Source of the DNA: a virus
DNA length: 46,706 nucleotides
Virus record (IMG/VR): IMGVR_UViG_3300033153_004756
Coordinates: 1-46,706 of that record
Reading direction: 5' to 3' (one strand)
The notes under the pieces were generated by a model. It had not been told where the DNA came from. It saw nothing but the letters and a program-made list of their open reading frames with translations, and searched no databases. Made by a program: the position numbers and the translations under genes. This document shows positions 1 to 46,706 of this stretch, one piece after another (position 1 is the first letter of the stretch; every line of letters starts with the position of its first letter).

Positions 1-113
1 ATCACCGATGGCCACAGCTATGTCTTGTAATTCAGGCATATCACCGATGGCCACAGCTATGTCTTGTAATTCAGGCATATCACCGATGGCCACAGCTATG
101 TCTTGTAATTCAG
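1..113. repeat. 39-bp tandem repeat (about 2.9 copies) inside the tape measure gene; identical copies at the other window end
   Basis: The unit is atcaccgatggccacagctatgtcttgtaattcaggcat, at 1-39 and 40-78, with a partial third copy. It encodes MPELQDIAVAIGD. Confidence 0.95.
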
Positions 114-1722
114 GTACTTCTGCAATGTTAACTTCCATAGCTTGTAGCTCAGGTATCACTTCACCTAAGTCTGTTAATATTACATTGGCTAAATCAAATC
201 CTTCAGGTATATTAGCGATCTTACCTGTGTCAGCGAAGCGTTCAATATTATCCTGACCAAGCACCGCATTCGATAAGTCCATTTCAGGCTTACCTTCTGT
301 GTTTATTTTAACTTTTATTTCTTCATCTTCAAATCCAAAGAAATCTTTAATGGTTTTTAATTTATCGGTGATTGGTTTTATAACATTGTTGTCAAATCCA
401 AAGAAATCTTTAATGATTTTTAATTTATCGGTGATTGGTTTTATAACATTGTTGTCAAAACTATTGGCGACATCATCCCATAAATCACTGAAAAATTTAG
501 CAATTGCAACACCTATTTCTTTAAAGGCAGTAACTAAATCTTTTTGAAGTTGTCGTATAGCTACTAATAGATCGCCAATAGGATCTTCAGCATTGAATAA
601 ATCAAATATTTGACCCCATCCATTAAATACCATGCCGACTAAATCAGCAACGGTGGCCATCGTAGCAGCGACAACAATGATCTGATTAGACCATTCAGGA
701 TATTTCTTTAACATGCTCCCTATGAAACTTTCCCCACCTTCAAAGAACACCTTAGCGTCTTCGGCAAGTAAACCAATGGCGGTAATAATTGTTCCAATTA
801 ATATAGGCAATGCGGCTATGGCAAGATTGGCAAATACAGCTCTAGCGCCGAGGGTACTAAACAATGTTATCATTGTAACTAGTGCGGTTATTAATTTAAC
901 ACTTAAAAATCCCATGGCCGCTAAGGTTAGCAATTTAAATGCTAGAGTAATTTTATCTATGATTTTGGGTATGTTTTGTTCTATGACTTCTTTGTTAGTT
1001 TTCCACCATTCGGTCATTTTATTTGACGCGTCTTTCAGTACTGGTGCTAGTGATCTAGTAATAATTCTGGACAGTTGCTTTACTATTTGGAATATATCGG
1101 CTAGTGAGTCTTGGAACTGTTCAGATAGAAGTGCATCTTCTTTAGTAGTTACGCCAAATTCTTTAGCTTCGGCGGTTAGTTTCCTAATTCCTGTTGAGCC
1201 TTCCTGCAATAAAAGGATGGAATCTCTCAATCCAAGTTTATCAGCAAGTTCAATTTGTTCGGCTTTTGAAAATCTTTGAAGTCTGTCAGATACTTCTAGT
1301 AATACTTGGTCAGTTGCTTTTAGTTTACCATTGGTATCAGTAACGGATACACCAAGTATCCCAAATGCTTCTATTCCAGATCCCATGCCACGCGAGGTTT
1401 CTGATATACGAATAGCAAGGTTGTCTAAGCTACTGCCCATAGACTCACTCTGACCCCCCGCGCGTTTAAGGGCAAATTCTAATGCATCTATTTCTTCAAC
1501 TGAAACGCCTGTTTGCTTAGATAATTTGCCTTGCCTATCGGTGGCGGCTGTGGTGGCGGCTGTGAATCCAACTAATGCGGCTGTTCCTGCAACAACTATT
1601 TTTGCAAAAGTTTTAATCGTAGAGGTAACAGCACCGATATCATCGTTAAACTGCTCTAAGTCTTTAGGATCATATTCGAACCCTAAGCCAACTAAGAGTT
1701 CATCGATAACACCTAATGCCAT
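1..1722 (-). CDS. tail tape measure protein, N-terminal ~574 codons (partial; continues in frame across the window junction)
   Basis: My own minus-strand translation from the ATG at 1722-1720 (MALGVIDELLVGLGFEYDPKDLEQF...) stays open to position 1. It has a long coiled-coil/hydrophobic profile and internal 21-aa and 13-aa tandem repeats. It lies directly after the chaperone pair. The + strand track ORFs 8-1756 are antisense shadows. Confidence 0.8.
   Translation of the reverse strand, partial: MALGVIDELLVGLGFEYDPKDLEQFNDDIGAVTSTIKTFAKIVVAGTAALVGFTAATTAATDRQGKLSKQTGVSVEEIDALEFALKRAGGQSESMGSSLDNLAIRISETSRGMGSGIEAFGILGVSVTDTNGKLKATDQVLLEVSDRLQRFSKAEQIELADKLGLRDSILLLQEGSTGIRKLTAEAKEFGVTTKEDALLSEQFQDSLADIFQIVKQLSRIITRSLAPVLKDASNKMTEWWKTNKEVIEQNIPKIIDKITLAFKLLTLAAMGFLSVKLITALVTMITLFSTLGARAVFANLAIAALPILIGTIITAIGLLAEDAKVFFEGGESFIGSMLKKYPEWSNQIIVVAATMATVADLVGMVFNGWGQIFDLFNAEDPIGDLLVAIRQLQKDLVTAFKEIGVAIAKFFSDLWDDVANSFDNNVIKPITDKLKIIKDFFGFDNNVIKPITDKLKTIKDFFGFEDEEIKVKINTEGKPEMDLSNAVLGQDNIERFADTGKIANIPEGFDLANVILTDLGEVIPELQAMEVNIAEVPELQDIAVAIGDMPELQDIAVAIGDMPELQDIAVAIGD
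330..455. repeat. 63-bp tandem duplication inside the tape measure gene (62/63 identical)
   Basis: The units are 330-392 and 393-455. Each encodes FDNNVIKPITDKLK(I/T)IKDFFG. Confidence 0.9.
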
Positions 1723-22332: not shown

Positions 22333-24729
22333 ATGAAAGCACCTTCTCGGCGCAACGCGCCTATGTCCTTAGATGTTCAATCCCTTCGTTCCATCATCGA
22401 TCACATAGCAGATTATCCACAGAAAATTTATGCCGCCGCTACATGGTATGCAAAGAATGGTATAATGGTAGTACCATTTGTTGATTATGGTAATAAAAAA
22501 ATGGGTTATCCAAAGGGAGTCTCCCAACACCATTGCACTTTATCACAAGATCAGGTCGACAAATGGTGGCATCCTCAAACAGGCATTTGTCCCGGAGCGG
22601 CCATTGCAATGGGTCACGGTGGTGCGTCTGGTTTTTGCGCAATAGATCTCGATATCAAAGGCGATATTAATGGTCTAGAGACACTTACCGACTTAATTTA
22701 CACATATGGCGAGTATGACGATGGTGAATCATCACTTGACACACTTATGGCAACCACACCGTCAGGAGGCCGACATCTAGTTTTCCGTTACCATCCCGAA
22801 ATCATATCAAATTCTGAAATATCATATCCCGGCATAGATACTCGTGGCGGTCTTAAGCGCAATCCATCGGAGAATGGTGGCATCACCTTTATAGAACCCT
22901 CGATTAAACCTGGCTCAAAAACAACCAAACCTTATCGTTGGGATAATACTATAACTGAAATTATCGATATGCCACAATGGCTTGTTGAGGTGCTTAATGG
23001 CCGACCACCTAAACGGGGTGGTATGAAGTTGCAGGAGTCTTACAATGAGTCTGAGATGGGCGAACATGGAGAAGGTCGTGACCGCAACATTTACATCGAT
23101 TTATTGCGTTTCGTCGGTATTGGGTATTCAGAACAGCAACTTTGGGATCTCATGCCAGAAATTATTGCTAGAATGAATCCACCAGACGAACAAATGGTCA
23201 AACGTAAAATAGAATCAGTCCTCCAATCAGATGCATTTATCAAAGCACAAAACGAATCAGAACGAAGAGAGAAAGCAGATAGCCTAGATCTAGATCGATC
23301 TGAAAAAGGCGGTATTATTAAATCAGCAAAAAACCTTCACGCAATTCTCACGTCACCTTTATTTCAACATGGATACGGCGATATTCGTTACGATGAATTC
23401 CAACATAACTACACGAAAAATGGCAAGCCACTTGCTATGATGGCAGATTATGCAGTGGGTATTAATATATGGATGTCTACCAATCTCATGGTTGATTTTG
23501 GCGTTGATATAGTACGTAAAGCAGTTGAATATGCGGCATATACTACTGAACATTCAAATTCAGCTAGAGATTACATGTTTTCATGTCCAAAACCAACATG
23601 TGAACGTAAAGATGATTATTGGGGGTCAGGTCGCAAGCATCCCGGTAAAGCATTTCGCCGCCTCTGCAATGAAGTTATGGATCTAGATAATCCTGACCTT
23701 CATAAGGGTTACACGCCTAATCACAAAATAGCATATGAAGCTTTCCTTTGGTTTTGGATGCAAGGAATCGTAACACGAGCTTGCATCCCCGGTTGTAAAA
23801 TGGAAATCATGTTAAATCTATTCGGCTCACAAGGTGTCGGTAAATCAACCTTTTTCAGAGATCTTTGTCCAGACCCAGAATGGTTCAGTGATAGTGTTCA
23901 AGATACCATAGTATCAGGTGGTCGTGATAACAAAGACGAACTTACTAAATTACAAGCAAAACTCATTGTAGAACTCCCGGAGCTTTCACCAATCAAGCGT
24001 GGTGGTAAAGCAGGTGATGATAAAATGAAGCAATTCATATCAACACAGGTCGATTATTTCAGAAAATCTTATGGTACAGATACAGTAGGCCATCCCCGCA
24101 CTTGCGTCTTATGCGGCTCATCCAACAATAACGACGTATATCGAGATATGACAGGGGATAGACGTTTCGTATCAATCAATCATGGTGAGACTCCATTTAA
24201 GTTGGGCGATCAAAACAACGGTGTGATGGATGAAATTCGTGATGAATTATGGGGTGAAGTGGTGGCAAGTTTCAGAGATGGTGAATTGATGGCCGACAGA
24301 AATGCCATTTTAGTTTGCATACCGCCTGACTTGCGAGAATATCAAAATAAGATTAATGATAGTCACAGATACGAAGAAGTTGGTTTGCCTGAATTATTAG
24401 AATGGATGATGACTAAAACACGTATAACATGGGAAGAAATTATTCATCATACTAAATCAATTCCCGGTCTACGTGATGCCAAAGAAACCCAAGTCATGGC
24501 ATTGATCAGAACGACACTCCGCAACTCTGGTAATTGGGTGTATAAGAAACGCTCCATCAGATACAGCGCGACGGGGGATAAAGAAAAGATTAATTTTTGG
24601 CTCAACGAGGATCATGAATTAGAAATTGAAAGAACAGTTGATATTGGCCAAAGGAGTATCGGAGGCATGAAAGCACCTGAACATTGGTCAAAGTATGACA
24701 TCGAAAATCAAAAGCCTGAGGAATATTGA
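22333..24729 (+). CDS. DNA primase-polymerase / VirE-type P-loop helicase fusion
   Basis: The N-terminus has PrimPol-like motifs (FCAIDLDIKGD, TPSGGRHLVFRY). The C-terminal half has the Walker A LFGSQGVGKSTFFRDL typical of the VirE/D5-like family. The start is set at the ATG at 22333 because 22270-22298 is a promoter. Confidence 0.75.
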   Translation: MKAPSRRNAPMSLDVQSLRSIIDHIADYPQKIYAAATWYAKNGIMVVPFVDYGNKKMGYPKGVSQHHCTLSQDQVDKWWHPQTGICPGAAIAMGHGGASGFCAIDLDIKGDINGLETLTDLIYTYGEYDDGESSLDTLMATTPSGGRHLVFRYHPEIISNSEISYPGIDTRGGLKRNPSENGGITFIEPSIKPGSKTTKPYRWDNTITEIIDMPQWLVEVLNGRPPKRGGMKLQESYNESEMGEHGEGRDRNIYIDLLRFVGIGYSEQQLWDLMPEIIARMNPPDEQMVKRKIESVLQSDAFIKAQNESERREKADSLDLDRSEKGGIIKSAKNLHAILTSPLFQHGYGDIRYDEFQHNYTKNGKPLAMMADYAVGINIWMSTNLMVDFGVDIVRKAVEYAAYTTEHSNSARDYMFSCPKPTCERKDDYWGSGRKHPGKAFRRLCNEVMDLDNPDLHKGYTPNHKIAYEAFLWFWMQGIVTRACIPGCKMEIMLNLFGSQGVGKSTFFRDLCPDPEWFSDSVQDTIVSGGRDNKDELTKLQAKLIVELPELSPIKRGGKAGDDKMKQFISTQVDYFRKSYGTDTVGHPRTCVLCGSSNNNDVYRDMTGDRRFVSINHGETPFKLGDQNNGVMDEIRDELWGEVVASFRDGELMADRNAILVCIPPDLREYQNKINDSHRYEEVGLPELLEWMMTKTRITWEEIIHHTKSIPGLRDAKETQVMALIRTTLRNSGNWVYKKRSIRYSATGDKEKINFWLNEDHELEIERTVDIGQRSIGGMKAPEHWSKYDIENQKPEEY

Positions 24730-24754
24730 CAAAGAATTTCAAGTGTGTTATAAT
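24726..24754 (+). promoter_or_regulatory. promoter P4 (TTGACA-N17-TATAAT, TGt) driving a short non-coding transcript
   Basis: Perfect consensus hexamers. The -35 hexamer overlaps the primase stop codon. A terminator lies about 70 nt downstream. Confidence 0.7.
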
Positions 24755-25072: not shown

Positions 25073-25101
25073 TTGACAACATCTCAATGATGTGTTATAA
25101 T
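25073..25101 (+). promoter_or_regulatory. promoter P5 (TTGACA-N17-TATAAT, TGt)
   Basis: Perfect consensus hexamers with the A/T-rich upstream AATTAATATA shared with P6. It lies 55 nt upstream of the ATG at 25156. Confidence 0.8.
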
Positions 25102-25602: not shown

Positions 25603-25718
25603 ATCCTTAAGGTAGTGTCGGCGCATACGACGGCATGTGACGATCGGAAAGACGATTGACACCCCGGAAAGACGGGGAAACCAAGAGCGAAGAGAGAAAT
25701 AATTTAAGGGGAATAATC

Positions 25719-26483
25719 ATGATTGATTTAAAAAATATATTGAAAGAACATTCATCGTTTTTAAATGGCGGAGGTGGTTCTCGTGCTAACTTACGCGGTG
25801 CTAACTTACGCGGTGCTAACTTATGCGGTGCTAACTTACGCGGTGCTAACTTACGCGGTGCTAACTTATGTGATGCTAACTTATGTGATGCTAACTTACG
25901 CGGTGCTAACTTATGCGGTGCTAACTTACGCGGTGCTAACTTACGCGGTGCTAACTTACGCGGTGCTAACTTATGCGGTGCTAACTTACGCGGTGCTAAC
26001 TTACGCGGTGCTAACTTACGCGGTGCTAACTTACGCGGTGCTAACTTATGCGGTGCTAACTTACGCGGTGCTAACTTATGTGGTGCTAACTTATGTGATG
26101 CTAACTTACGCGGTGCTAACTTACGCGGTGCTAACTTATGCGATGCTAACTTACGCGGTGCTAACTTACGCGGTGCTGACTTACGCGGTGCTAACTTATG
26201 TGATGCTGACTTATGCGATGCTAACTTATGTGATGCTAACTTATGTGATGCTAACTTACGCGGAGGATTCAAGTGTGATGGGAATTTTCACCATATCAAT
26301 AACGTCGGATCGGAAAAAGGGATACTGGAGCTATATTCCTGTTCCGAGTCAGGTTGGTTCATAAAAAGAGGCTGTTTTTCTGGGTCTAAAAAAGAATTTT
26401 TAGAAGCTGTCTCAGAAACTCATGGTGAAAATTCCCATGCCATTAAGTATAGGCAAATAATCAATCTTTTTTGTGGGGAATAA
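25719..26483 (+). CDS. pentapeptide-repeat protein (32 consecutive A[N/D]L[R/C][G/D] units plus an 80-aa C-terminal domain)
   Basis: The ATG at 25719 is preceded by AAGGGGAATAATC. The repeat matches the canonical A(D/N)LXX pentapeptide consensus. The other open frames across the repeat are artefacts. Confidence 0.75.
   Translation: MIDLKNILKEHSSFLNGGGGSRANLRGANLRGANLCGANLRGANLRGANLCDANLCDANLRGANLCGANLRGANLRGANLRGANLCGANLRGANLRGANLRGANLRGANLCGANLRGANLCGANLCDANLRGANLRGANLCDANLRGANLRGADLRGANLCDADLCDANLCDANLCDANLRGGFKCDGNFHHINNVGSEKGILELYSCSESGWFIKRGCFSGSKKEFLEAVSETHGENSHAIKYRQIINLFCGE
25785..26264 (+). repeat. 32 tandem copies of the 15-bp unit gctaacttacgcggt (coding)
   Basis: The tract is 480 nt with no indels. 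Variation is limited to transitions at unit positions 4, 10, 12 and 14. Confidence 0.95.
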
Positions 26484-26485
26484 TC

Positions 26486-26704
26486 ATGTCTAAGTTATAT
26501 GGCGTTAACCCAGAAAAATTGGGGGAGTTGCAAGATCAAGGTTATTATGATAAACATGTTTTAGCCATGACAACTGAAAATTTATTAGGTAAAATGTATA
26601 TAGCATCAGAGTTAGCATCGCGTGATCAGCAAATAGATCAGTTGCTATCTGAAATAGATCGCCATCTAGACCATATTAACCGTCTGGAGAGTAAAAATGA
26701 TTAA
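26486..26704 (+). CDS. hypothetical protein (72 aa)
   Basis: The ATG at 26486 is preceded by GGGGAATAATC, identical to the upstream gene's initiation region. Confidence 0.5.
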   Translation: MSKLYGVNPEKLGELQDQGYYDKHVLAMTTENLLGKMYIASELASRDQQIDQLLSEIDRHLDHINRLESKND

Positions 26705-32641: not shown

Positions 32642-34492
32642 ATGAAAGATTTCCCAGATCTAACCAAGTTCGATGAAGTTGCGTATGATACTGAAACCAC
32701 CGGACTTAATCCCAATGCTGGGGCGCGGGTTTTTGGTTTTAGTTTAAGCACTCCCGATGGCAAAGATTATTATTATGATGTCCGTGAACAACCAGAAGCA
32801 GTGAAAATGTTCAATCGCCAAATGAAAGATTATGAGGGCGATACTATCTGTCACAACCTTTCATTTGATTACAGGATGTCTCAAGCAAGCGGCCTTAATT
32901 TTGATCTAGCTAGATCATCGGATACGGTTATTCAAGCCGGACTTATCAATGAACATGAACACGCCTATTCCCTCGATCATCTAGCAGGGAAATATACATC
33001 AGAATTTAAGAAGGGTGATCAACTTTATACAGATTTAGCGGCGATATTCGGCGGACGAGCTACCAAAAATGTCCAGATGAAAAATATATCCGACGCGCCC
33101 TCCGAGATAGTTGATCCTTATGCCAAGGCTGATACTAGGGCAACACTAGCATTGCATCAATTCCAAAAGAAGGAAATAACCAAACAAGGGCTAGAAAAGA
33201 TATTAACATTTGAACAATCGGTGACACCAGTTTTATTGGCGGCTGAAATGCATGGAGTTAGAGTCGATATTCCGGCGGCTGAAAAGGCGGTGGGCGAATT
33301 AAGTGGCGTAATCCGTCAAATGCAAAAAGAATTAAATGATGCGGCGGGATTTCCATGCAACGCGCAACCAAGTGGTGATATTAAAAAGTTATTCAAGCCG
33401 CAATGGAAAGATGGCCGATGGTGGGCTATTGATGGCACACCACTTGAAGAAACTAAATCCGGCAATGCCAGTGTTGGTGCTGACGCATTGCGCAAAATGT
33501 CCCATCCGGCGGCAAAAATAATTCTTGATCTAAGAAGTATGATTAAGACTCGTGATACCTTTTTAGTAGGTCACGTTTTAGAATCAGCCCAAAATGGCCG
33601 AGTTTATCCTAATATCAATCAAACTAAAGGTGATGATGGCGGTACGGGCACAGGTCGATTATCATACACAAGTCCCGCATTGCAACAAATACCAGATCGA
33701 AACAAACAAGTTGCCGAAATCGTAAAGCAAGTATTCTTACCAGATGAAGATCACAGTTGGGTAGACATGGATATGGCATCGTTTGAGGTACGTATCTTTG
33801 CACATTTAGTTGGCACACCTGATATAGTTGATGCTTATTTGCGCGATCCAGAACAGGATTTCCATCAATATGTAGCCGATTTAACAGGTCTAGTGAGAAA
33901 TGCAACTTATAACGGACAGCCGAACGCCAAACAATTAAATCTTTCCATGATTTTCAATCAAGGCAATGGTACGACAGCCGAAGAAATGGGTCTTCCTTGG
34001 TCTTGGGAATCATTCTACCCTAAAGGCAGTGGCAATATGATCACGTACAAGAAAGCAGGCGAAGAAGCGATGGGAGTAATAAACGCTTACCATAATCGCC
34101 TACCCGGTGTAAAAAGATTGGCCGATGGTTGTAAGAAAGTAGCTGAAGAAAGAGGTTATATCTTCACAAGAAGTGGTCGCCATTTGAGATTCCCACGTGG
34201 GTATCAATCCTACAAGGCATCAGGCATATTAATTCAAGCAACGGCGGCAGATGAAAATAAACGCAACTGGTTATTGATTGATGAAGCGATCCAAGGCACT
34301 GGTGCTAAAATGTTACTGAATACACATGATTCATACTCATTATCAATACCGAAAGGAGAAGAAGAAAAAGTATCAAAATTGATTAAGGAACGAATAGAAG
34401 AAGACCGGGGATTAAAAGTCCCTTTAATTTTAGAAGTAAACAGATCCGGCAAAAATTGGTGGGAAAGTAAAAAATCAGATAGATGGCTGTAA
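32642..34492 (+). CDS. family-A DNA polymerase with 3'-5' exonuclease domain (DpoZ candidate)
   Basis: Exo motifs are AYDTETTGL, HNLSFDY and YAKADTRATLAL. Pol motif A is DMDMASFEVRIFAHL, motif B is NAKQLNLSMIFNQG, and motif C is LLNTHDS. Confidence 0.85.
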   Translation: MKDFPDLTKFDEVAYDTETTGLNPNAGARVFGFSLSTPDGKDYYYDVREQPEAVKMFNRQMKDYEGDTICHNLSFDYRMSQASGLNFDLARSSDTVIQAGLINEHEHAYSLDHLAGKYTSEFKKGDQLYTDLAAIFGGRATKNVQMKNISDAPSEIVDPYAKADTRATLALHQFQKKEITKQGLEKILTFEQSVTPVLLAAEMHGVRVDIPAAEKAVGELSGVIRQMQKELNDAAGFPCNAQPSGDIKKLFKPQWKDGRWWAIDGTPLEETKSGNASVGADALRKMSHPAAKIILDLRSMIKTRDTFLVGHVLESAQNGRVYPNINQTKGDDGGTGTGRLSYTSPALQQIPDRNKQVAEIVKQVFLPDEDHSWVDMDMASFEVRIFAHLVGTPDIVDAYLRDPEQDFHQYVADLTGLVRNATYNGQPNAKQLNLSMIFNQGNGTTAEEMGLPWSWESFYPKGSGNMITYKKAGEEAMGVINAYHNRLPGVKRLADGCKKVAEERGYIFTRSGRHLRFPRGYQSYKASGILIQATAADENKRNWLLIDEAIQGTGAKMLLNTHDSYSLSIPKGEEEKVSKLIKERIEEDRGLKVPLILEVNRSGKNWWESKKSDRWL

Positions 34493-34514
34493 ATTAACCT
34501 AGAGGAAAATAAAA

Positions 34515-35228
34515 ATGATTAAAGTTTTAGATCACGGATTTATAAGACTTGTAGATTCAATGGGAGATGATCTTTCGATTGTTCGAAACGCTAGAGTATC
34601 TTATGATGCAGAATGGCGAGCGGGAGAAGATAAGGGCAGTGATGAACGGCTCATAAATTATCTTTATAATAACGGTCACAATACACCATTTGAGGCAGTC
34701 ACTTTAACATTTGATGTTAAAGCTCCTATATTCGTATTCAGACAATGGCATCGCCACCGTACACAATCGTTTAATGAATTAAGCGCTAGATATCGCGAAT
34801 TACCAGAAGAATTTTACATTCCTGAACCACATTTGATCGGTAAACAAAATAAAGATAATAAACAGATGCGTGATCCGATGACCAAAGAAGAGTTTGAAGC
34901 GTTGCCGCATGAAGAAAAATTTAACATTGAACAGTGGTTAATGCACATGGCGCATTGTAACAAAGATTCTTTCTCTCTGTACAAATCTATGATAAAGGGC
35001 GGAATGCCTCGCGAATTGGCTAGATCAGTTCTTCCAGTATCAACGTATAGTCATATGTTCGCTACGGTCAACCTTCATAATTTATTCAGATTTTTAGCGG
35101 AAAGACTTCACCCTCATGCACAATATGAAATTAAAGTTTATGCCGAAGCAATACTCGAATTGATTCGTCCAGTGGTTCCGGTAGCGGTTGCAGCATTCGA
35201 AAAACGATTTAACGAACAAGGTTGGTAA
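34515..35228 (+). CDS. thyX: FAD-dependent thymidylate synthase ThyX
   Basis: The ThyX signature RHRTQSFNELSARY (RHRxxSxxxxSxR) is present in a 237-aa product. Confidence 0.85.
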   Translation: MIKVLDHGFIRLVDSMGDDLSIVRNARVSYDAEWRAGEDKGSDERLINYLYNNGHNTPFEAVTLTFDVKAPIFVFRQWHRHRTQSFNELSARYRELPEEFYIPEPHLIGKQNKDNKQMRDPMTKEEFEALPHEEKFNIEQWLMHMAHCNKDSFSLYKSMIKGGMPRELARSVLPVSTYSHMFATVNLHNLFRFLAERLHPHAQYEIKVYAEAILELIRPVVPVAVAAFEKRFNEQGW

Positions 35229-36283
35229 TGAAAATGAAAGCATATATGATTTTAGATTTACAATTTGGCAGTACGGGTAAAGGTTCATTAGCGGGATATT
35301 TGGCCATTGAAAGAGAACCTGACACAGTAGTCACAGCATGGGCGCCCAATGCAGGACATACTTATATCGACGAAAATGGACGTGAATTTATTCACAGAAT
35401 GTTGGCTAATGGGATTGTATCACCGAAATTAAAGACAATTCTCATTGGCGCGGGATCGGTTGTTGATCCTCAATGCCTACATGATGAAATTTTCGCTTGT
35501 AAGGATTTGTTACAAGGCAAAAAGATAGTGATCCATCCACAAGCGGCAATCGTCTTGCCAGAGCATCTGAACATCGAAAAAGCCAATGTAAAAATAGGAA
35601 GCACTATGAAAGGTTCCGGTGCGGCTTTAATACAAAAAATTCAACGTGATCCAGACAATTGTAACAACGCTAGAATGGCATTCCCGCAAGATATCTGCAA
35701 TAAAATTCATGCAATGGGAGTAAACATTGTGATTTCAGCGGATGAATATCGCGTAGCAATCAAACAAGCGAAAGTTATGCAAATTGAAGGCGCACAAGGG
35801 TATAGCTTGTCGGTTCACCATGGTTTCTACCCTTATTGTACTAGTCGTGATGTTACTCCGGCACAAGTGATGGCAGATTGTTGTATTCCTTATTCAATTA
35901 AACCTGAAGTATATGGTACATTAAGAACTTTCCCGATCCGTGTTGCAAATCGTTATGATGAAAATGGAAAGTTGATTGGTACTAGTGGCTGTGGTTATGA
36001 TGATCAAGTTGAACTTGATTGGTCAAAAGTAGGTGTAGAGCCAGAATTAACAACAGTAACAAAATTACCGCGTCGCGTGTTCAGTTTTAGTCTGATGCAA
36101 ACGCAAGAAGCTTGTTTTCAATGTTCACCAGATTATTTATTCTTGAATTTCGCTAATTATATGCACGAAGACGATCTTGCAACATTGAAAACAAGGATAG
36201 AAGCCGCGACAGGAATTCCTGTCAGATGGTTAGGTTTTGGTGCAACACATAATGATGTAGTTGATTTAGGGGAAATATCATGA
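35228..36283 (+). CDS. purZ: PurZ-like N6-succino-2-amino-2'-deoxyadenylate synthase (truncated adenylosuccinate synthetase homologue)
   Basis: PurA-family motifs are NAGHT, IGSTMKGSG, EGAQGYSLSVHHGFYPYCTSR and TKLPRRV. The P-loop reads QFGSTGKGS rather than QWGDEGKGK. The product is 351 aa against about 430 aa for PurA. It is flanked by MazG-like and HD-domain genes. The ATG at 35228 overlaps the thyX stop (TAATG). Confidence 0.75.
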   Translation: MKMKAYMILDLQFGSTGKGSLAGYLAIEREPDTVVTAWAPNAGHTYIDENGREFIHRMLANGIVSPKLKTILIGAGSVVDPQCLHDEIFACKDLLQGKKIVIHPQAAIVLPEHLNIEKANVKIGSTMKGSGAALIQKIQRDPDNCNNARMAFPQDICNKIHAMGVNIVISADEYRVAIKQAKVMQIEGAQGYSLSVHHGFYPYCTSRDVTPAQVMADCCIPYSIKPEVYGTLRTFPIRVANRYDENGKLIGTSGCGYDDQVELDWSKVGVEPELTTVTKLPRRVFSFSLMQTQEACFQCSPDYLFLNFANYMHEDDLATLKTRIEAATGIPVRWLGFGATHNDVVDLGEIS

Positions 36284-37272
36284 GTCAATTAATAGCGTTT
36301 ACTGGAAAAGCAAGATCAGGCAAGGATGCATCGGCAGATGTTTTATGCGAAAATTACAGATTTGATCGAGCTTCATTTGCTAGAGCCATGAAAGATGGTA
36401 TCAAAGTTATGATCGGACTAGATGAAGAACAAGTAAATGGTGATTTGAAAGAAGAGCCTGTTGGATTTGGTAATTTAACGCCGCGAGACATCTTACAGAC
36501 TTTGGGAACGGAATGGGGCAGAGAAATGATCCACCCTGATATTTGGATAGTCAAAGTTGCCCAACAATGGGAAAAATTCAAGTTGCAGGGCAGGGATATG
36601 GTCATCACTGATCTTCGTTTTGAAAACGAAGCAGAATGGGTTAGATCTATAGGTGGCACAGTAGTCCATATCAAAGCTTCAAATTCAACAGAAATTAAAA
36701 ACAATGATCATATATCAGAATCCGGCATCGTTGTCCATTCTCGCGATAAAATAATTGTAAATGATAAGTCTGCAGGAATAAAATCATTGATAGGTAAAAT
36801 AGATTGGCTGATCAGATCCATTAAAAATCTCCACAAGAATGAATCCGTGAGTATCCGGGAAGATCTAGAAGAACCAACATCAACAATTTTATCCTTACAA
36901 CATTTAATTACTTCATGGGCTGACGAAGTGATGCCACAAAGGACAATCACCAATGCCTTGACTAAATTGGTGATGGAAGAAATTCCAGAATATTTAACGT
37001 CTCAACATGATCCTATGGAACTGGCCGATTGTGCTATTTTAATTTATGATATCGCACACTTGGCCGGGATTGATCTAGAGAAAGCCATGCGTGATAAAAT
37101 GGAAATCAATAAAAATCGAACTTGGGCTATCGACGATGAAACTGGCTTATTAAATCACGTGGAAAAAAGTGTTGATGAGTCAAAACATAAGTGTTGTGAA
37201 GGTAAGGATGCTCCTCATTGCGAATGCCATGCATCGCCAAATTACTTTAAAGAACGTGGAGAAATCGGGTGA
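36280..37272 (+). CDS. fusion protein: N-terminal dNMP kinase-like P-loop domain plus C-terminal MazG/DUF550-like nucleotide pyrophosphohydrolase (MazZ candidate)
   Basis: The N-terminus has the P-loop FTGKARSGKDASAD followed by LGTEWGRE, as in phage dNMP kinases. The C-terminal region KLVMEEIPEY...MELADCAILIYDIAHLAGIDLEKAMRDKMEINKNRTW is a typical MazG-like helix pair. It has a Cys/His-rich tail. Confidence 0.65.
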   Translation: MSQLIAFTGKARSGKDASADVLCENYRFDRASFARAMKDGIKVMIGLDEEQVNGDLKEEPVGFGNLTPRDILQTLGTEWGREMIHPDIWIVKVAQQWEKFKLQGRDMVITDLRFENEAEWVRSIGGTVVHIKASNSTEIKNNDHISESGIVVHSRDKIIVNDKSAGIKSLIGKIDWLIRSIKNLHKNESVSIREDLEEPTSTILSLQHLITSWADEVMPQRTITNALTKLVMEEIPEYLTSQHDPMELADCAILIYDIAHLAGIDLEKAMRDKMEINKNRTWAIDDETGLLNHVEKSVDESKHKCCEGKDAPHCECHASPNYFKERGEIG

Positions 37273-46328: not shown

Positions 46329-46706
46329 TAGATCGCCACCGCGCTATTTAGGTCAATGGATGCCTGTTTAAATAAAGGCTCTAATTCTTGTCGTATTTTC
46401 TCACCAATAATTTTACCTGATGTTTGTGGATCACCTGTAGTTTCTTTAATATCCACTTTAATGCCACCTAGATCAATCTTAACTTCGCTAGTAGTATTAT
46501 TGGAAACGTCATTAGAAGTAATCCCTGATAACTGGTTAGTATTGGCTTGATCTTCTTTACTGAATTTATTGAGGATTTCAACATTTTCTGGCGCTATGTC
46601 TTGTAATTCAGGCATATCACCGATGGCCACAGCTATGTCTTGTAATTCAGGCATATCACCGATGGCCACAGCTATGTCTTGTAATTCAGGCATATCACCG
46701 ATGGCC
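46328..46706 (-). CDS. tail tape measure protein, C-terminal part (partial; joins 1..1722 through the terminal overlap)
   Basis: The frame of track ORF 46328..46693 is open up to the window end. It contains repeated MPELQDIAVAIGD units identical to those encoded at 1-113. Removing the 13, 52 or 91 nt terminal overlap joins both parts in frame. The TAA stop overlaps the next ATG (TAATG at 46326-46330). Confidence 0.8.
   Translation of the reverse strand, partial: AIGDMPELQDIAVAIGDMPELQDIAVAIGDMPELQDIAPENVEILNKFSKEDQANTNQLSGITSNDVSNNTTSEVKIDLGGIKVDIKETTGDPQTSGKIIGEKIRQELEPLFKQASIDLNSAVAI
46592..46706. repeat. 39-bp tandem repeat (partial copy, two full copies, then 13 nt); the last 91 nt equal window positions 1-91
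   Basis: Full units lie at 46616-46654 and 46655-46693, and 46694-46706 equals 1-13. Confidence 0.95.

What the first reader, a model, noticed from the sequence alone, without database searches (positions are those of the whole stretch)
25719..26483. Hyper-regular pentapeptide-repeat protein encoded by 32 near-identical 15-bp units
The tract 25785-26264 is 480 nt of gctaacttacgcggt repeated 32 times with no indel. The only variation is four transition sites per unit:
- position 4 A/G gives Asn/Asp
- position 10 C/T gives Arg/Cys
- position 12 C/T is a silent Cys change
- position 14 G/A gives Gly/Asp

The product, (A[N/D]L[R/C][G/D])x32, fits the A(D/N)LXX consensus of right-handed quadrilateral beta-helix proteins of the Qnr/MfpA/AlbG class, at about 8 coils.

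Unlike those acidic DNA mimics, the outward-facing positions here are mostly Arg and Cys. That predicts a strongly basic, Cys-studded rod.

The nucleotide-level homogeneity points to recent expansion or ongoing concerted evolution, and to copy-number instability. The 80-aa C-terminal domain (GGFKCDGNFHH...GCFSGSKKEFLEAV...) has no function I recognise. The gene sits in the early/middle arm, next to several tiny genes.
Basis: partly seen in the sequence, partly recalled or inferred. Interest (0 to 1): 0.65.

Follow-up and report, generated by a model that had tools for sequence, protein, structure and literature searches.

The report
Expanded pentapeptide-repeat phage accessory protein
A phage early gene encodes a rod-shaped repeat protein whose 32 near-identical 15-bp units look like a recent in-frame expansion, attached to a small, widespread but uncharacterised phage "head" domain; it is real and striking, but it is an extreme member of an existing (unstudied) family, not a Qnr-type DNA mimic.

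Summary
Positions 25785-26264 are 32 in-register 15-bp units with no indel, inside a 254-aa ORF (25719-26483, +). The ORF has a strong RBS and lies downstream of a perfect sigma-70 consensus promoter.

The repeat region is a pentapeptide-repeat beta-helix: Pfam PF00805 E=1.9e-71, AlphaFold pLDDT mostly 80-96, and best PDB match a designed consensus solenoid. It is not a Qnr/MfpA member. NCBIfam scores are far below the cut-offs, the net charge is +9, and there are no loops.

The most informative part is the 72-aa C-terminus:
- It is a conserved domain (4 strands, 2 helices; G-S...G-C-F-x-G...H...Y) with at least 753 clusters at 50% identity.
- It has no Pfam model and no PDB sequence or fold match.
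- It is almost always C-terminal to a beta-solenoid, either pentapeptide or YdcK/hexapeptide type, or stands alone.

DNA-level tandem arrays recur across this family. Two phage contigs about 99% identical in their flanks differ by 15 units (4 vs 19). The closest relatives of the window protein carry about 1-8 units.

Best reading: an early phage accessory protein with a length-unstable solenoid stalk and a conserved effector head. The target is unknown, and the copy number is unverified in this assembly.

The parts
25073..25101 (+). Sigma-70 consensus promoter-like site (TTGACA-17-TATAAT with TG), the nearest upstream promoter candidate for the orf148 / repeat gene / small-gene transcription unit
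   Evidence: 12 of 12 matches. No terminator-like site lies between it and the repeat gene. A second 12/12 site is at 24726-24754.
25603..25718 (+). 116-nt structured intergenic leader with three hairpins, two of which carry the motif CGGAAAGACG
   Evidence: MFE -30 kcal/mol, z = -2.67 against shuffles. No Rfam family matches. Function unknown.
25708..25721 (+). RBS plus start codon, GGGGAATAATCATG; first copy of a 14-nt exact direct repeat that brackets the gene
   Evidence: exact copies only at 25708 and 26475. With up to 2 mismatches the window has 5 matches, against 0.44 expected.
25719..26483 (+). Complete CDS, 254 aa: N-cap, 32 pentapeptide units and C-terminal domain
25719..25784 (+). 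N-terminal cap, MIDLKNILKEHSSFLNGGGGSR (helical), the typical 'L..IL..H..WL....G.RA.L' start of this pentapeptide subfamily
   Evidence: phrog_7713 matches residues 3-61. The same motif is in P0001, P0158 and the L002 protein. Helices 4-16 in the model.
25785..26264 (+). 32 x 15-bp tandem array encoding (A[N/D]L[R/C][G/D])x32, predicted as 8 coils of right-handed quadrilateral beta-helix
   Evidence: array; PF00805, E=1.9e-71; pLDDT 77-96 over residues 21-160, falling to 57-64 over 161-180; 4ycq TM 0.81, rmsd 2.5 A.
26265..26480 (+). 72-aa conserved C-terminal domain (beta1-4, alpha1-2) with near-invariant G-S, G-C-F-x-G, F, V, H, Y
   Evidence: phrog_20532 E=2.3e-10 and phrog_7964. 753 representative clusters. 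pLDDT 93-96 with an alignment. No Pfam, NCBIfam or PDB match.
26475..26488 (+). Second copy of GGGGAATAATCATG; it overlaps the stop codon of the repeat gene and supplies the RBS and start of the next gene (26486-26704, 72 aa, phrog_34533)

Best explanation
The gene encodes a cytoplasmic, early-expressed phage accessory protein. It belongs to a widespread but unstudied family that is defined by its C-terminal domain, not by its repeats.

**The C-terminal domain.** It is about 65 aa, with 4 strands and 2 helices and near-invariant Ser, Cys, His and Tyr. I take it to be the working 'head', either binding a host target or carrying out Cys/His-dependent chemistry.

**The solenoid.** The beta-solenoid in front of the head is a rigid stalk or scaffold. 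Its type (pentapeptide or YdcK-hexapeptide), length (0 to more than 30 units) and surface are free to vary.

**The window's copy.** Its stalk was expanded to 32 units, which is 8 coils and roughly 4 nm. The likely route is recent in-frame slippage or unequal recombination of one 15-bp unit. A few C:G->T:A transitions at outward-facing codons (CGC->TGC->TGT, GGT->GAT) were then copied along with the units, giving the Arg/Cys and Gly/Asp dimorphism.

**Shown**
- The array, the fold class and the domain family.
- The recurrence of DNA-level arrays across the family.
- A 15-unit copy-number difference between near-identical phage contigs.
- Early-region context.

**Inferred**
- The division of labour between head and stalk.
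- That the conserved residues form one site at the distal tip.
- A role in host takeover, counter-defence or exclusion.
For: **Family**
- The C-domain profile finds 753 clusters at E<=1e-3.
- In the top 150 it lies within 10 residues of the C-terminus in 117. It follows pentapeptide repeats in 48, hexapeptide repeats in 58, and is short or stand-alone in 25.
- A Pfam census finds almost only solenoid partner domains.
- Complete stand-alone forms exist, for example P0047 at 71 aa. The domain is therefore not merely a solenoid cap.
- Near-invariant residues are G, S, G-C-F-x-G, F, V, H and Y.
- The domain model is confident (pLDDT 93-96). It has no PDB analogue. In BFVD it matches only other phage solenoid proteins.

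**The stalk is not conserved**
- Repeat-region net charge ranges from -13 to +6 across the family, with a median of about -2.
- Unit numbers differ widely among relatives.
- L002 and L013 share 99.3% and 98.7% identical flanking DNA but carry 19 and 4 units.
- DNA-level arrays occur in both solenoid types: 15 bp x11.8, 15 bp x17.9, 18 bp x30.9 and 18 bp x12.
- Within an array the core codons are homogenised while surface codons are dimorphic.

**Expression and context**
- RBS plus ATG, a 12/12 consensus promoter upstream and no intervening terminator.
- The gene lies between the primase-helicase and an SNF2-type helicase.
- Relatives sit in a lambdoid nin region, next to RecT/exonuclease, or beside NinG/recombination genes.
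Against: - No experiment or characterised homologue supports any function. All database names are 'hypothetical', and I found no paper on the family.
- About 65 residues is small for an enzyme. The invariant Cys and His could instead be structural or bind a metal.
- I could not inspect model coordinates, so the clustering of conserved residues is inferred from topology only.
- The window protein is an outlier within the family: 160-aa repeat region against a maximum of 115, charge +9 against a maximum of +6, and 13 Cys against a maximum of 6. Its stalk may therefore have acquired a role of its own, or the gene may be decaying.
- The copy number is unverified.
Confidence: 0.5

Rival explanations
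1. Qnr/MfpA-type action: the beta-helix mimics B-DNA and binds host (or phage) gyrase, topoisomerase or another DNA-handling enzyme. This would modulate supercoiling or protect against a poison.
For: - It has the same fold class and a similar length of about 8 coils. MfpA and QnrB1 structures superpose at TM about 0.5-0.7.
- PDB sequence hits include QnrB1, MfpA and AlbG.
- Phages are known to encode gyrase modulators (PMC10886550).
- The gene lies in a replication module.
Against: - NCBIfam scores are far below the cut-offs for every Qnr/MfpA model.
- The repeat surface is net +9 instead of acidic.
- There are no loop insertions, since the 32 units carry no indel.
- A different globular domain replaces the C-terminal dimerising helix.
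- Relatives with the same C-domain have only 1-6 units or a hexapeptide solenoid. DNA-like length and shape are therefore not conserved.
Confidence: 0.1
2. The Arg-rich rod itself is the active part. It acts as a basic nucleic-acid-binding (or polyanion-binding) solenoid, for example coating DNA or RNA or binding an anionic envelope or teichoic polymer. Expansion would then increase avidity.
For: - There are 19 Arg at the outward-facing i+1 position.
- Units 1-20 carry about +12 net charge (derived).
- The window protein is the most basic and longest of 48 pentapeptide-type relatives. This could reflect directional selection.
Against: - Basic charge is not a family trait: the median is -2, and 31 of 48 members are net negative.
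- Thirteen Arg codons have already mutated to Cys, and 8 Gly to Asp. This erodes the charge, which argues against selection for it.
- No known pentapeptide-repeat protein binds nucleic acid this way (own knowledge).
Confidence: 0.1
3. The array has no adaptive meaning. It is a neutral or mildly harmful runaway expansion in a dispensable moron gene, or its length is partly an assembly artefact.
For: - The gene is accessory, and its neighbours are not conserved among relatives.
- Every change away from the consensus unit at positions 10, 12 and 14 is a C:G->T:A transition, in a 39% GC genome with a 48% GC array. This fits mutational decay.
- As few as 5-7 mutational events explain the pattern.
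- The contig ends in another tandem repeat.
- Many NCBI homologues are 'partial', suggesting that arrays often break assemblies.
Against: - The frame is intact over 480 bp.
- Core codons for the inward-facing Ala and Leu are untouched in all 32 units.
- The model folds confidently.
- Long regular arrays recur independently in other family members and in isolated, fully sequenced phages such as Curvibacter P26059A, with about 31 units. Long stalks are therefore tolerated or favoured.
- The longest internal repeat of 89 bp is resolvable.
Confidence: 0.2
4. Filament or lattice former: solenoids stack end to end (bactofilin-like) or dimerise through the C-domain. The resulting cytoskeleton-like structure would reorganise the infected cell.
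For: - Hexapeptide-type relatives hit Bactofilin and YdcK solenoid models and are annotated 'polymer-forming cytoskeletal protein'.
- Uncapped beta-solenoids tend to polymerise (own knowledge).
Against: - Both ends are capped, by an N-terminal helix and by the C-domain.
- Pentapeptide-repeat proteins are not known to polymerise.
- The bactofilin hits are weak and reflect repeat similarity only.
Confidence: 0.07

Closest known systems
Phage beta-solenoid + C-domain proteins (phrog_20532 / phrog_7964). Examples: Mannheimia phage vB_MhS_587AP2 gp43, Curvibacter phage P26059A_0104, Paenibacillus phage Pd_22F QVQ56278, Bacillus phages Bp8p/phiAGATE. All uncharacterised.
   Same: - The same C-terminal domain with the same conserved residues.
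- The same position, directly after a beta-solenoid.
- Early or accessory gene context.
- DNA-level tandem arrays with dimorphic surface codons.
   Different: - Those listed use YdcK/hexapeptide (18-bp) solenoids with a different N-terminal domain.
- The window protein uses pentapeptide (15-bp) units.
- It has the longest, most basic and most Cys-rich pentapeptide stalk among the 48 pentapeptide-type relatives in the 150 listed representatives.
Short pentapeptide orthologue-like relatives (P0001, P0002, P0154, P0157, P0158; L002/L013; L007/P0003)
   Same: - N-cap motif and C-domain 58-71% identical.
- Several share the same DNA unit, GCT-RAC-TTA-YGC-GGT, including the R/C dimorphism.
   Different: They carry about 1-19 units against 32 here. 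They lie in unrelated phage backbones.
Qnr / MfpA / AlbG / McbG topoisomerase-protecting pentapeptide-repeat proteins
   Same: Right-handed quadrilateral beta-helix of about 8-9 coils, A(D/N)LXX repeats, cytoplasmic.
   Different: - Those proteins are acidic and DNA-like, with irregular repeats.
- Qnr has two functional loops.
- They dimerise by a C-terminal helix.
- The window protein is basic and perfectly regular, ends in a different globular domain, and fails the family score cut-offs.
Designed consensus pentapeptide solenoid 'Beta1' (PDB 4YC5/4YCQ/4YEI)
   Same: It is the best sequence and structure match in the PDB (E=3e-54 by sequence; TM 0.81, rmsd 2.5 A, 54% identity). Both are near-ideal consensus repeats.
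   Different: Beta1 is synthetic, has engineered caps and has no effector domain. The window protein is natural and carries the phage C-domain.
In-frame VNTR / contingency-type repeat genes (length-variable repeat proteins of bacteria and phages)
   Same: The unit is a multiple of 3. There is near-identity at the DNA level, and copy number differs between near-identical genomes.
   Different: Those are typically surface or tail proteins under immune or receptor selection. Here the product is a cytoplasmic early protein, and no phenotype for length change is known.

Membership tests
Pentapeptide-repeat proteins (Pfam PF00805, Rfr fold) | Tandem A(D/N)LXX pentapeptides above the family score threshold | tested here: met
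   PF00805 scores 235.5 bits against a cut-off of 20.2, E=1.9e-71. PF13599 and PF13576 also pass. There are 32 uninterrupted units.
Pentapeptide-repeat proteins (Pfam PF00805, Rfr fold) | Right-handed quadrilateral beta-helix, four units per coil | tested here: met
   This is a prediction only. The AF2 single-sequence model has one strand per 5 residues, with pLDDT 77-96 over residues 21-160 and 57-64 over 161-180. It superposes on solved pentapeptide structures (4ycq TM 0.81, rmsd 2.5 A; also NP275/276, MfpA, QnrB1).
Qnr / MfpA / AlbG topoisomerase-protecting PRPs | Sequence membership (NCBIfam curated cut-offs) | tested here: not met
   Qnr 54.8 bits against 240. MfpA 57.2 against 360. QnrA/B/C/D/E/S/VC 27-48 against 425-500.
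Qnr / MfpA / AlbG topoisomerase-protecting PRPs | Net-negative, DNA-like electrostatic surface | tested here: not met
   The repeat region has net charge +9 and pI 9.2. The whole protein has pI 8.9.
Qnr / MfpA / AlbG topoisomerase-protecting PRPs | Loops interrupting the helix (Qnr) and a C-terminal helix mediating tail-to-tail dimers | tested here: not met
   There is no indel in 32 units. The C-terminus is a beta4-alpha2 globular domain instead. The oligomeric state itself was not testable.
Qnr / MfpA / AlbG topoisomerase-protecting PRPs | Binds gyrase/topoisomerase IV and alters its activity or drug sensitivity | not testable with these tools
   This needs biochemistry.
Phage solenoid + C-domain family (phrog_20532 / phrog_7964; no Pfam model) | Significant match of the C-terminal ~65 aa to the family profile, with conserved G-S, G-C-F-x-G, F, V, H, Y | tested here: met
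   phrog_20532 E=2.3e-10 and phrog_7964 E=5.4e-8 for residues 9-68 of the domain. All conserved residues are present in the window sequence.
Phage solenoid + C-domain family (phrog_20532 / phrog_7964; no Pfam model) | The domain lies at the extreme C-terminus, directly after a beta-solenoid repeat region | tested here: met
   In the window the array ends at residue 182, the domain covers residues 183-254, and the stop codon follows directly. Of the family representatives, 117 of 150 have fewer than 10 residues after the domain.
Phage solenoid + C-domain family (phrog_20532 / phrog_7964; no Pfam model) | Encoded in phage or prophage early/accessory regions | tested here: met
   The window gene lies between the primase-helicase and an SNF2 helicase. 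Relatives lie in a nin region, next to RecT/exonuclease, and in isolated phages of six or more host genera.
Alr5209-family pentapeptide protein (NCBIfam NF052603) | Equivalog score cut-off; a ~113-aa single-domain cyanobacterial protein with type I turns | tested here: inconclusive
   It scores 141.5 bits against a cut-off of 125, but through 3 repeated stretches of consensus units. Length, architecture and C-domain all differ. I read the hit as a repeat-consensus effect.
Cys-every-fifth RiPP precursor CefA (NCBIfam NF038108) | A short (~65 aa) precursor peptide with Cys every fifth residue and an adjacent radical-SAM maturase | tested here: not met
   The score is borderline (30.2 against 30) and limited to residues 137-178. 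The protein is 254 aa with folded caps. No Radical_SAM domain was found in the eight large ORFs scanned or in the neighbours.
Diversity-generating retroelement target | Adenine-specific variation against a template repeat, plus a reverse transcriptase nearby | tested here: not met
   Variable sites are C/T, C/T and G/A, with only two A/G. No template copy or RT appeared among the annotated ORFs. The RT search was not exhaustive.

The most novel reading that the evidence does not exclude
The conserved C-terminal domain is a new phage effector module with a previously unseen fold and a Ser/Cys/His/Tyr site. It is displayed on interchangeable beta-solenoid stalks. The length of those stalks is tuned by hypermutable in-frame tandem repeats, making the gene a contingency-locus-like 'adjustable ruler' used in a phage-host conflict. 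The length might match the geometry of a host target, or let the phage escape a defence that recognises the protein. The 32-unit window gene would be the extreme of this mechanism.
Probability: 0.25. Interest if true: 0.7.

Novelty: new variant of a known kind. Interest (0 to 1): 0.45.

Why it matters
- **Unknown function in phages.** Pentapeptide-repeat proteins are common in phages, yet none of this type has a known function.
- **Where the conserved information lies.** In this lineage it lies in a small unannotated C-terminal domain, present in at least 753 sequence clusters. That domain is shared with hexapeptide-solenoid proteins, while the solenoid itself turns over rapidly by repeat slippage.
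- **What this offers.**
  - A concrete family to add to domain databases.
  - A clear experimental handle: head point mutants versus stalk-length variants.
  - A natural series of near-ideal consensus solenoids of different lengths, of interest for protein design.
- **If length variation proves adaptive.** It would be a new example of contingency-type variation in a cytoplasmic phage protein.
- **If not.** The locus remains a clean case study of concerted evolution and assembly risk in coding tandem repeats.

Tried and rejected
**Searches that returned nothing useful**
- Close relatives of the phage: megablast of the locus against 50,697 phage records found no match. The primase-helicase found no relative in IMG/VR.
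- Near-identical copies of the gene, to test copy-number polymorphism directly: exact-pattern scans of metagenome and viral contigs with a C-domain 24-mer gave 0 hits. The protein is not on record in the gene-position index. A profile scan of metagenome contigs found nothing. The broad alignment A2 was too diverse for locus scanning.
- The repeat-unit dimer has no match in the GTDB genome collection. Its single viral hit (L014) has an unrelated C-terminal domain (hhalign probability 0.3).
- Defence-system membership: PADLOC gave no hit.
- C-domain annotation: Pfam and NCBIfam have no family. PDB searches by sequence and by profile found nothing. Foldseek against the PDB gave nothing below E=0.8.
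- Conserved gene neighbours that could hint at a partner: the upstream genes are unrelated in the window, L001, L002 and L008, as is the nearby helicase compared with L008.
- RNA element in the structured leader: no Rfam family and no tRNA.
- Literature: six searches found no paper on this family.

**Readings considered and rejected**
- A CefA-type RiPP precursor: the hit is borderline and driven by periodicity, and the large ORFs scanned contain no maturase.
- A DGR target: the variable bases have the wrong specificity.
- Face-specific Cys or Asp stripes: I tallied the unit list by unit number modulo 4. This gives 3-4 Cys on each of the four faces, so there is no stripe.
- Strong selection inferred from the 23:7 non-synonymous to synonymous count: the variants are copies of a handful of events, so the count is not independent evidence.
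Full report
**1.

- Positions 25785-26264 hold 32 head-to-tail copies of a 15-bp unit with no indel. TRF reports period 15, 32.1 copies, 92% matches, 0% indels and score 752 (sequence).
- Unit-by-unit parsing gives 17 copies of GCTAACTTACGCGGT, 6 of ...TGTGAT, 4 of ...TGCGGT and five singletons.
- Variation is confined to four positions: 4 (A/G 30:2), 10 (C/T 19:13), 12 (C/T 25:7) and 14 (G/A 24:8).
- T12 and A14 occur only on units that also carry T10. The array is therefore a mosaic of two main unit haplotypes, CGCGGT and TGTGAT, plus intermediates.
- The translated product is (A[N/D]L[R/C][G/D])x32.
- The other long ORFs across the tract, on the minus strand and in a second plus-strand frame, are by-products of a stop-free periodic sequence.

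**2. Gene model and expression signals**

- The CDS runs from 25719 to 26483 (254 aa). The ATG is preceded by GGGGAATAATC.
- The N-terminus, MIDLKNILKEHSSFLNGGGGSRANL, aligns with the N-caps of relatives such as P0001, P0158 and the L002 protein. This supports the ATG over the upstream TTG listed.
- A 12/12 sigma-70 consensus promoter with an extended TG lies at 25073-25101, in front of the upstream 148-aa ORF. No terminator-like site separates it from the repeat gene.
- The 116-nt spacer is more structured than shuffled controls (z = -2.67) but matches no Rfam family.
- The exact 14-mer GGGGAATAATCATG occurs twice, at the start codon of this gene and at the start codon of the next one. It brackets the gene like a cassette.

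**3. The repeat region**

- *Membership of the pentapeptide-repeat superfamily is solid.* PF00805 gives E=1.9e-71. A single-sequence AlphaFold model has one short strand every five residues, with pLDDT 77-96 over residues 21-160 and 57-64 over 161-180.
- *The model superposes on solved pentapeptide structures.* The best match is the designed consensus solenoid Beta1 (4ycq, TM 0.81, rmsd 2.5 A, 54% identity). NP275/276, HetL, MfpA and QnrB1 follow (sequence-level hits).
- *Size.* Thirty-two units at four per coil give 8 coils. At the roughly 4.8 A rise per coil known from solved structures (own knowledge), that is about 4 nm.
- *Membership of the Qnr/MfpA/AlbG group fails.*
  - Every NCBIfam model for those families scores far below its cut-off, for example Qnr 54.8 against 240 and MfpA 57.2 against 360.
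  - The repeat surface is net +9 (19 Arg, 10 Asp, 13 Cys; pI 9.2) instead of acidic.
  - There are no loop insertions.
  - The C-terminus is a different domain.
- *Two odd NCBIfam hits are repeat-consensus or periodicity effects.* Alr5209 falls just above its cut-off through three repeated stretches. The 'Cys-every-fifth' RiPP model scores 30.2 against 30. The large ORFs scanned contain no radical-SAM maturase.

**4. The C-terminal 72 residues are the conserved, defining part**

- They match phrog_20532 (E=2.3e-10) and phrog_7964, both of unknown function.
- They have no Pfam or NCBIfam model and no PDB relative by sequence or profile.
- An exhaustive HMMER search with a three-sequence profile found 753 representative clusters at E<=1e-3.
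- In the top 150 the domain is at the extreme C-terminus in 117. It follows pentapeptide repeats in 48 and hexapeptide-type repeats in 58. It is short or stand-alone in 25.
- A Pfam census of those 150 finds almost only solenoid partners: PF00805 in 48, the YdcK solenoid PF18836 in 34, Hexapep in 18, and LbH/Bactofilin in a few.
- Examples in isolated phages are Mannheimia vB_MhS_587AP2 gp43, Paenibacillus Pd_22F and Curvibacter P26059A_0104. Further examples come from Bacillus, Achromobacter, Fusobacterium and Xanthomonas phages.
- With an 80-sequence alignment the domain models at pLDDT 93-96 as four strands followed by two helices.
- Foldseek finds nothing in the PDB below E=0.8. In BFVD the significant hits (E<=0.001) are phage proteins carrying solenoid-type names (hexapeptide, pentapeptide, beta-solenoid, polymer-forming) or short unnamed fragments.
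- Near-invariant residues are G-S (loop beta1-beta2), G-C-F-x-G (turn beta3-beta4), F and V (helix 1), H (end of helix 1) and Y (helix 2).
- From the meander topology, these loops and helix ends should lie at the same end of the domain, distal to the solenoid. This is an inference, because I could not read the coordinates.

**5. How the array evolves**

- *Tandem arrays are a family trait.* They occur in both solenoid types:
  - 15 bp x11.8 in L006
  - 15 bp x17.9 in L002
  - 18 bp x30.9 in Curvibacter phage
  - 18 bp x12 in Mannheimia phage
- *Core codons are homogenised within each array.* The codons for the inward-facing residues are uniform, synonymous sites included. The outward-facing codons are dimorphic by single steps:
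  - GCT-RAC-TTA in the window, L001, L002 and L007
  - GCC-AAT-CTG in the 53% GC L008
  - GCT-AAC-CTY in L006
  - CGG/TGG/CAG and AAC/GAC in the hexapeptide array
- *The C-domains have diverged much further.* Between the window and L001 or L002, only 26/48 and 15/38 third positions are identical at conserved residues. Within-array homogeneity therefore reflects concerted evolution or recent duplication, not slow divergence.
- *Copy number changes quickly.* L002 and L013 share 99.3% and 98.7% identical flanking DNA. Their genes carry 19 and 4 units, a clean 225-bp in-frame difference. Collapse in one short-read assembly cannot be fully excluded.
- *The window's closest relatives are short.* P0001, P0002 and P0153-P0158 (58-71% identical C-domains) carry about 1-8 units. 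Expansion in the window lineage is therefore the parsimonious reading.
- *The window is the extreme.* Among the 48 pentapeptide-type representatives it has the greatest repeat-region length (160 aa against at most 115), charge (+9 against at most +6) and Cys count (13 against at most 6).
- *Mutational spectrum.* All three common departures from the consensus unit (C10->T, C12->T, G14->A) are C:G->T:A transitions. The array is 48% GC in a 39% GC genome. As few as 5-7 mutational events, copied by unit duplication, explain the pattern.
- I therefore do not read the Cys residues as designed. I also do not treat the 23:7 non-synonymous to synonymous count as evidence of selection.
- I tallied the unit list by unit number modulo 4. 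Each of the four faces carries 3-4 Cys, so there is no face-specific stripe.

**6. Genome context**

- The window is a roughly 46.7-kb phage contig whose ends overlap by 91 bp inside a perfect 39-bp tandem repeat.
- The minus-strand modules encode terminase, portal, major head protein, a DUF3383 protein and a baseplate J protein.
- The plus-strand arm encodes primase-helicase, the repeat gene, several tiny ORFs, an SNF2-type helicase, a methyltransferase-like protein and a family-A DNA polymerase. It also encodes thymidylate synthase, a PurZ-like synthetase, and a dNMP-kinase fused to a dATP/dGTP pyrophosphohydrolase. The last items form a 2-aminoadenine (Z-genome) gene set.
- PurZ is about 50% identical to those of Acinetobacter, Salmonella, Klebsiella and Providencia phages.
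- No close relative of the phage is in the searched collections.
- Relatives of the repeat gene sit in unrelated backbones:
  - a lambdoid nin region after DnaB-NinB-NinG, identical in 8 contigs
  - next to RecT and an exonuclease
  - near DUF2800 and helicase genes
- Neighbouring genes are not conserved. The gene behaves as a mobile early-region accessory gene.

**7. Mechanism**

The best-supported picture is a division of labour.
- The conserved C-domain is the effector or target-binding head. It exists alone, keeps polar invariant residues and is indifferent to solenoid type.
- The solenoid is a rigid stalk that tolerates, and perhaps exploits, rapid length change in steps of 5 residues; four units make one coil.
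- Expression from a strong early promoter, and placement among replication, recombination and nin-type genes, suggest a role in host takeover, counter-defence or exclusion. No tool here can name the target.

Rivals:
- A Qnr-like DNA mimic is contradicted by charge, scores, missing loops and non-conserved length.
- A basic nucleic-acid-binding rod is possible for this outlier. Basic charge is not a family trait, however, and it is being eroded here.
- A neutral runaway expansion or assembly artefact cannot be excluded without long reads. Against it stand the intact frame, the untouched core codons and the recurrence of long arrays in isolated phages.
- A bactofilin-like polymer has weak support.

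**8. Novelty and verdict**

- The array is genuine and unusually regular. Its nearest structural neighbour in the PDB is an engineered consensus protein.
- Hyper-regular solenoid arrays are nevertheless a recurring feature of this phage family, and pentapeptide-repeat proteins in phages are well known as annotations.
- Three things are new relative to curated knowledge:
  - the C-terminal domain family, which has no Pfam model and no fold match
  - its exclusive pairing with two kinds of beta-solenoid
  - direct evidence for repeat-number change between near-identical phages
- I found no paper on it, and all database names are 'hypothetical'.
- I rate it a new variant of a known kind, of moderate interest.

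Noticed in passing
window 32642-37272 (+): A 2-aminoadenine (Z-genome) gene set. It comprises a family-A DNA polymerase (32642-34492), thymidylate synthase (34515-35228) and a PurZ-like synthetase (35222-36283; phrog_1211, E=1.3e-84). PurZ is about 50% identical to those of Acinetobacter SH-Ab 15497, Salmonella PMBT28 and Klebsiella phages. The set also has a dNMP-kinase fused to a dATP/dGTP pyrophosphohydrolase (36280-37272). The structural module looks myovirus-like (DUF3383, Baseplate_J).
   Followed up: partly
window 1-114 and 46593-46706: The contig ends overlap by 91 bp inside a perfect 39-bp (13-codon) tandem repeat, with about 2.9 copies at each end. The record is therefore probably a circularised assembly that broke in a second coding tandem repeat. 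Its copy number is uncertain. A 63-bp x2.1 repeat lies nearby at 329-459.
   Followed up: partly
window 25708-25721 and 26475-26488: The exact 14-nt direct repeat GGGGAATAATCATG sits at the start codon of the repeat gene and at the start codon of the next gene. It brackets the gene precisely. This could be a shared RBS context or a recombination joint for gain or loss of a gene cassette.
   Followed up: partly
window 24726-24754 and 25073-25101 (+): Two perfect 12/12 sigma-70 consensus promoters with an extended -10 TG lie 350 bp apart, at the start of this early gene block.
   Followed up: no
window 25603-25718: The structured intergenic leader has three hairpins. Two of them carry the same CGGAAAGACG motif in stem and loop (z = -2.67). 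No Rfam match.
   Followed up: partly
L002 4950-5549 vs L013 1930-2295: Two metagenomic phage contigs are 99% identical in their flanks, but the orthologous pentapeptide gene carries 19 units in one and 4 in the other. This is a 225-bp in-frame difference.
   Followed up: yes
L005 2418-2974 (Curvibacter phage P26059A_0104): An isolated phage carries about 31 near-identical 18-bp hexapeptide units (GDAQVY/GNARVY/GDAWVS) in front of the same C-terminal domain. It shows the same style of dimorphic surface codons: A/G for N/D, and CGG/TGG/CAG for R/W/Q.
   Followed up: partly
L014 3389-3886 (IMGVR_UViG_3300012346_000074): Another phage pentapeptide protein uses the identical 15-bp unit GCTAACTTACGCGGT (14.7 copies). 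Its C-terminal domain is unrelated, and the gene lies between a Cys-rich 178-aa ORF that looks NinG-like by eye and two downstream ORFs that may be recombination genes (not tested). The same repeat DNA is therefore combined with different heads.
   Followed up: partly
homologue list: Many NCBI members of the C-domain family are flagged 'partial' and are short. This is consistent with draft assemblies breaking inside the tandem arrays, so repeat lengths in this family are probably under-reported in databases.
   Followed up: no
window 26137-26252 (protein residues 137-178): The run of ANLCD units scores just at the NCBIfam cut-off for the 'Cys-every-fifth' RiPP precursor CefA (30.2 against 30). 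I judged this a periodicity artefact, because the large ORFs scanned contain no maturase.
   Followed up: partly
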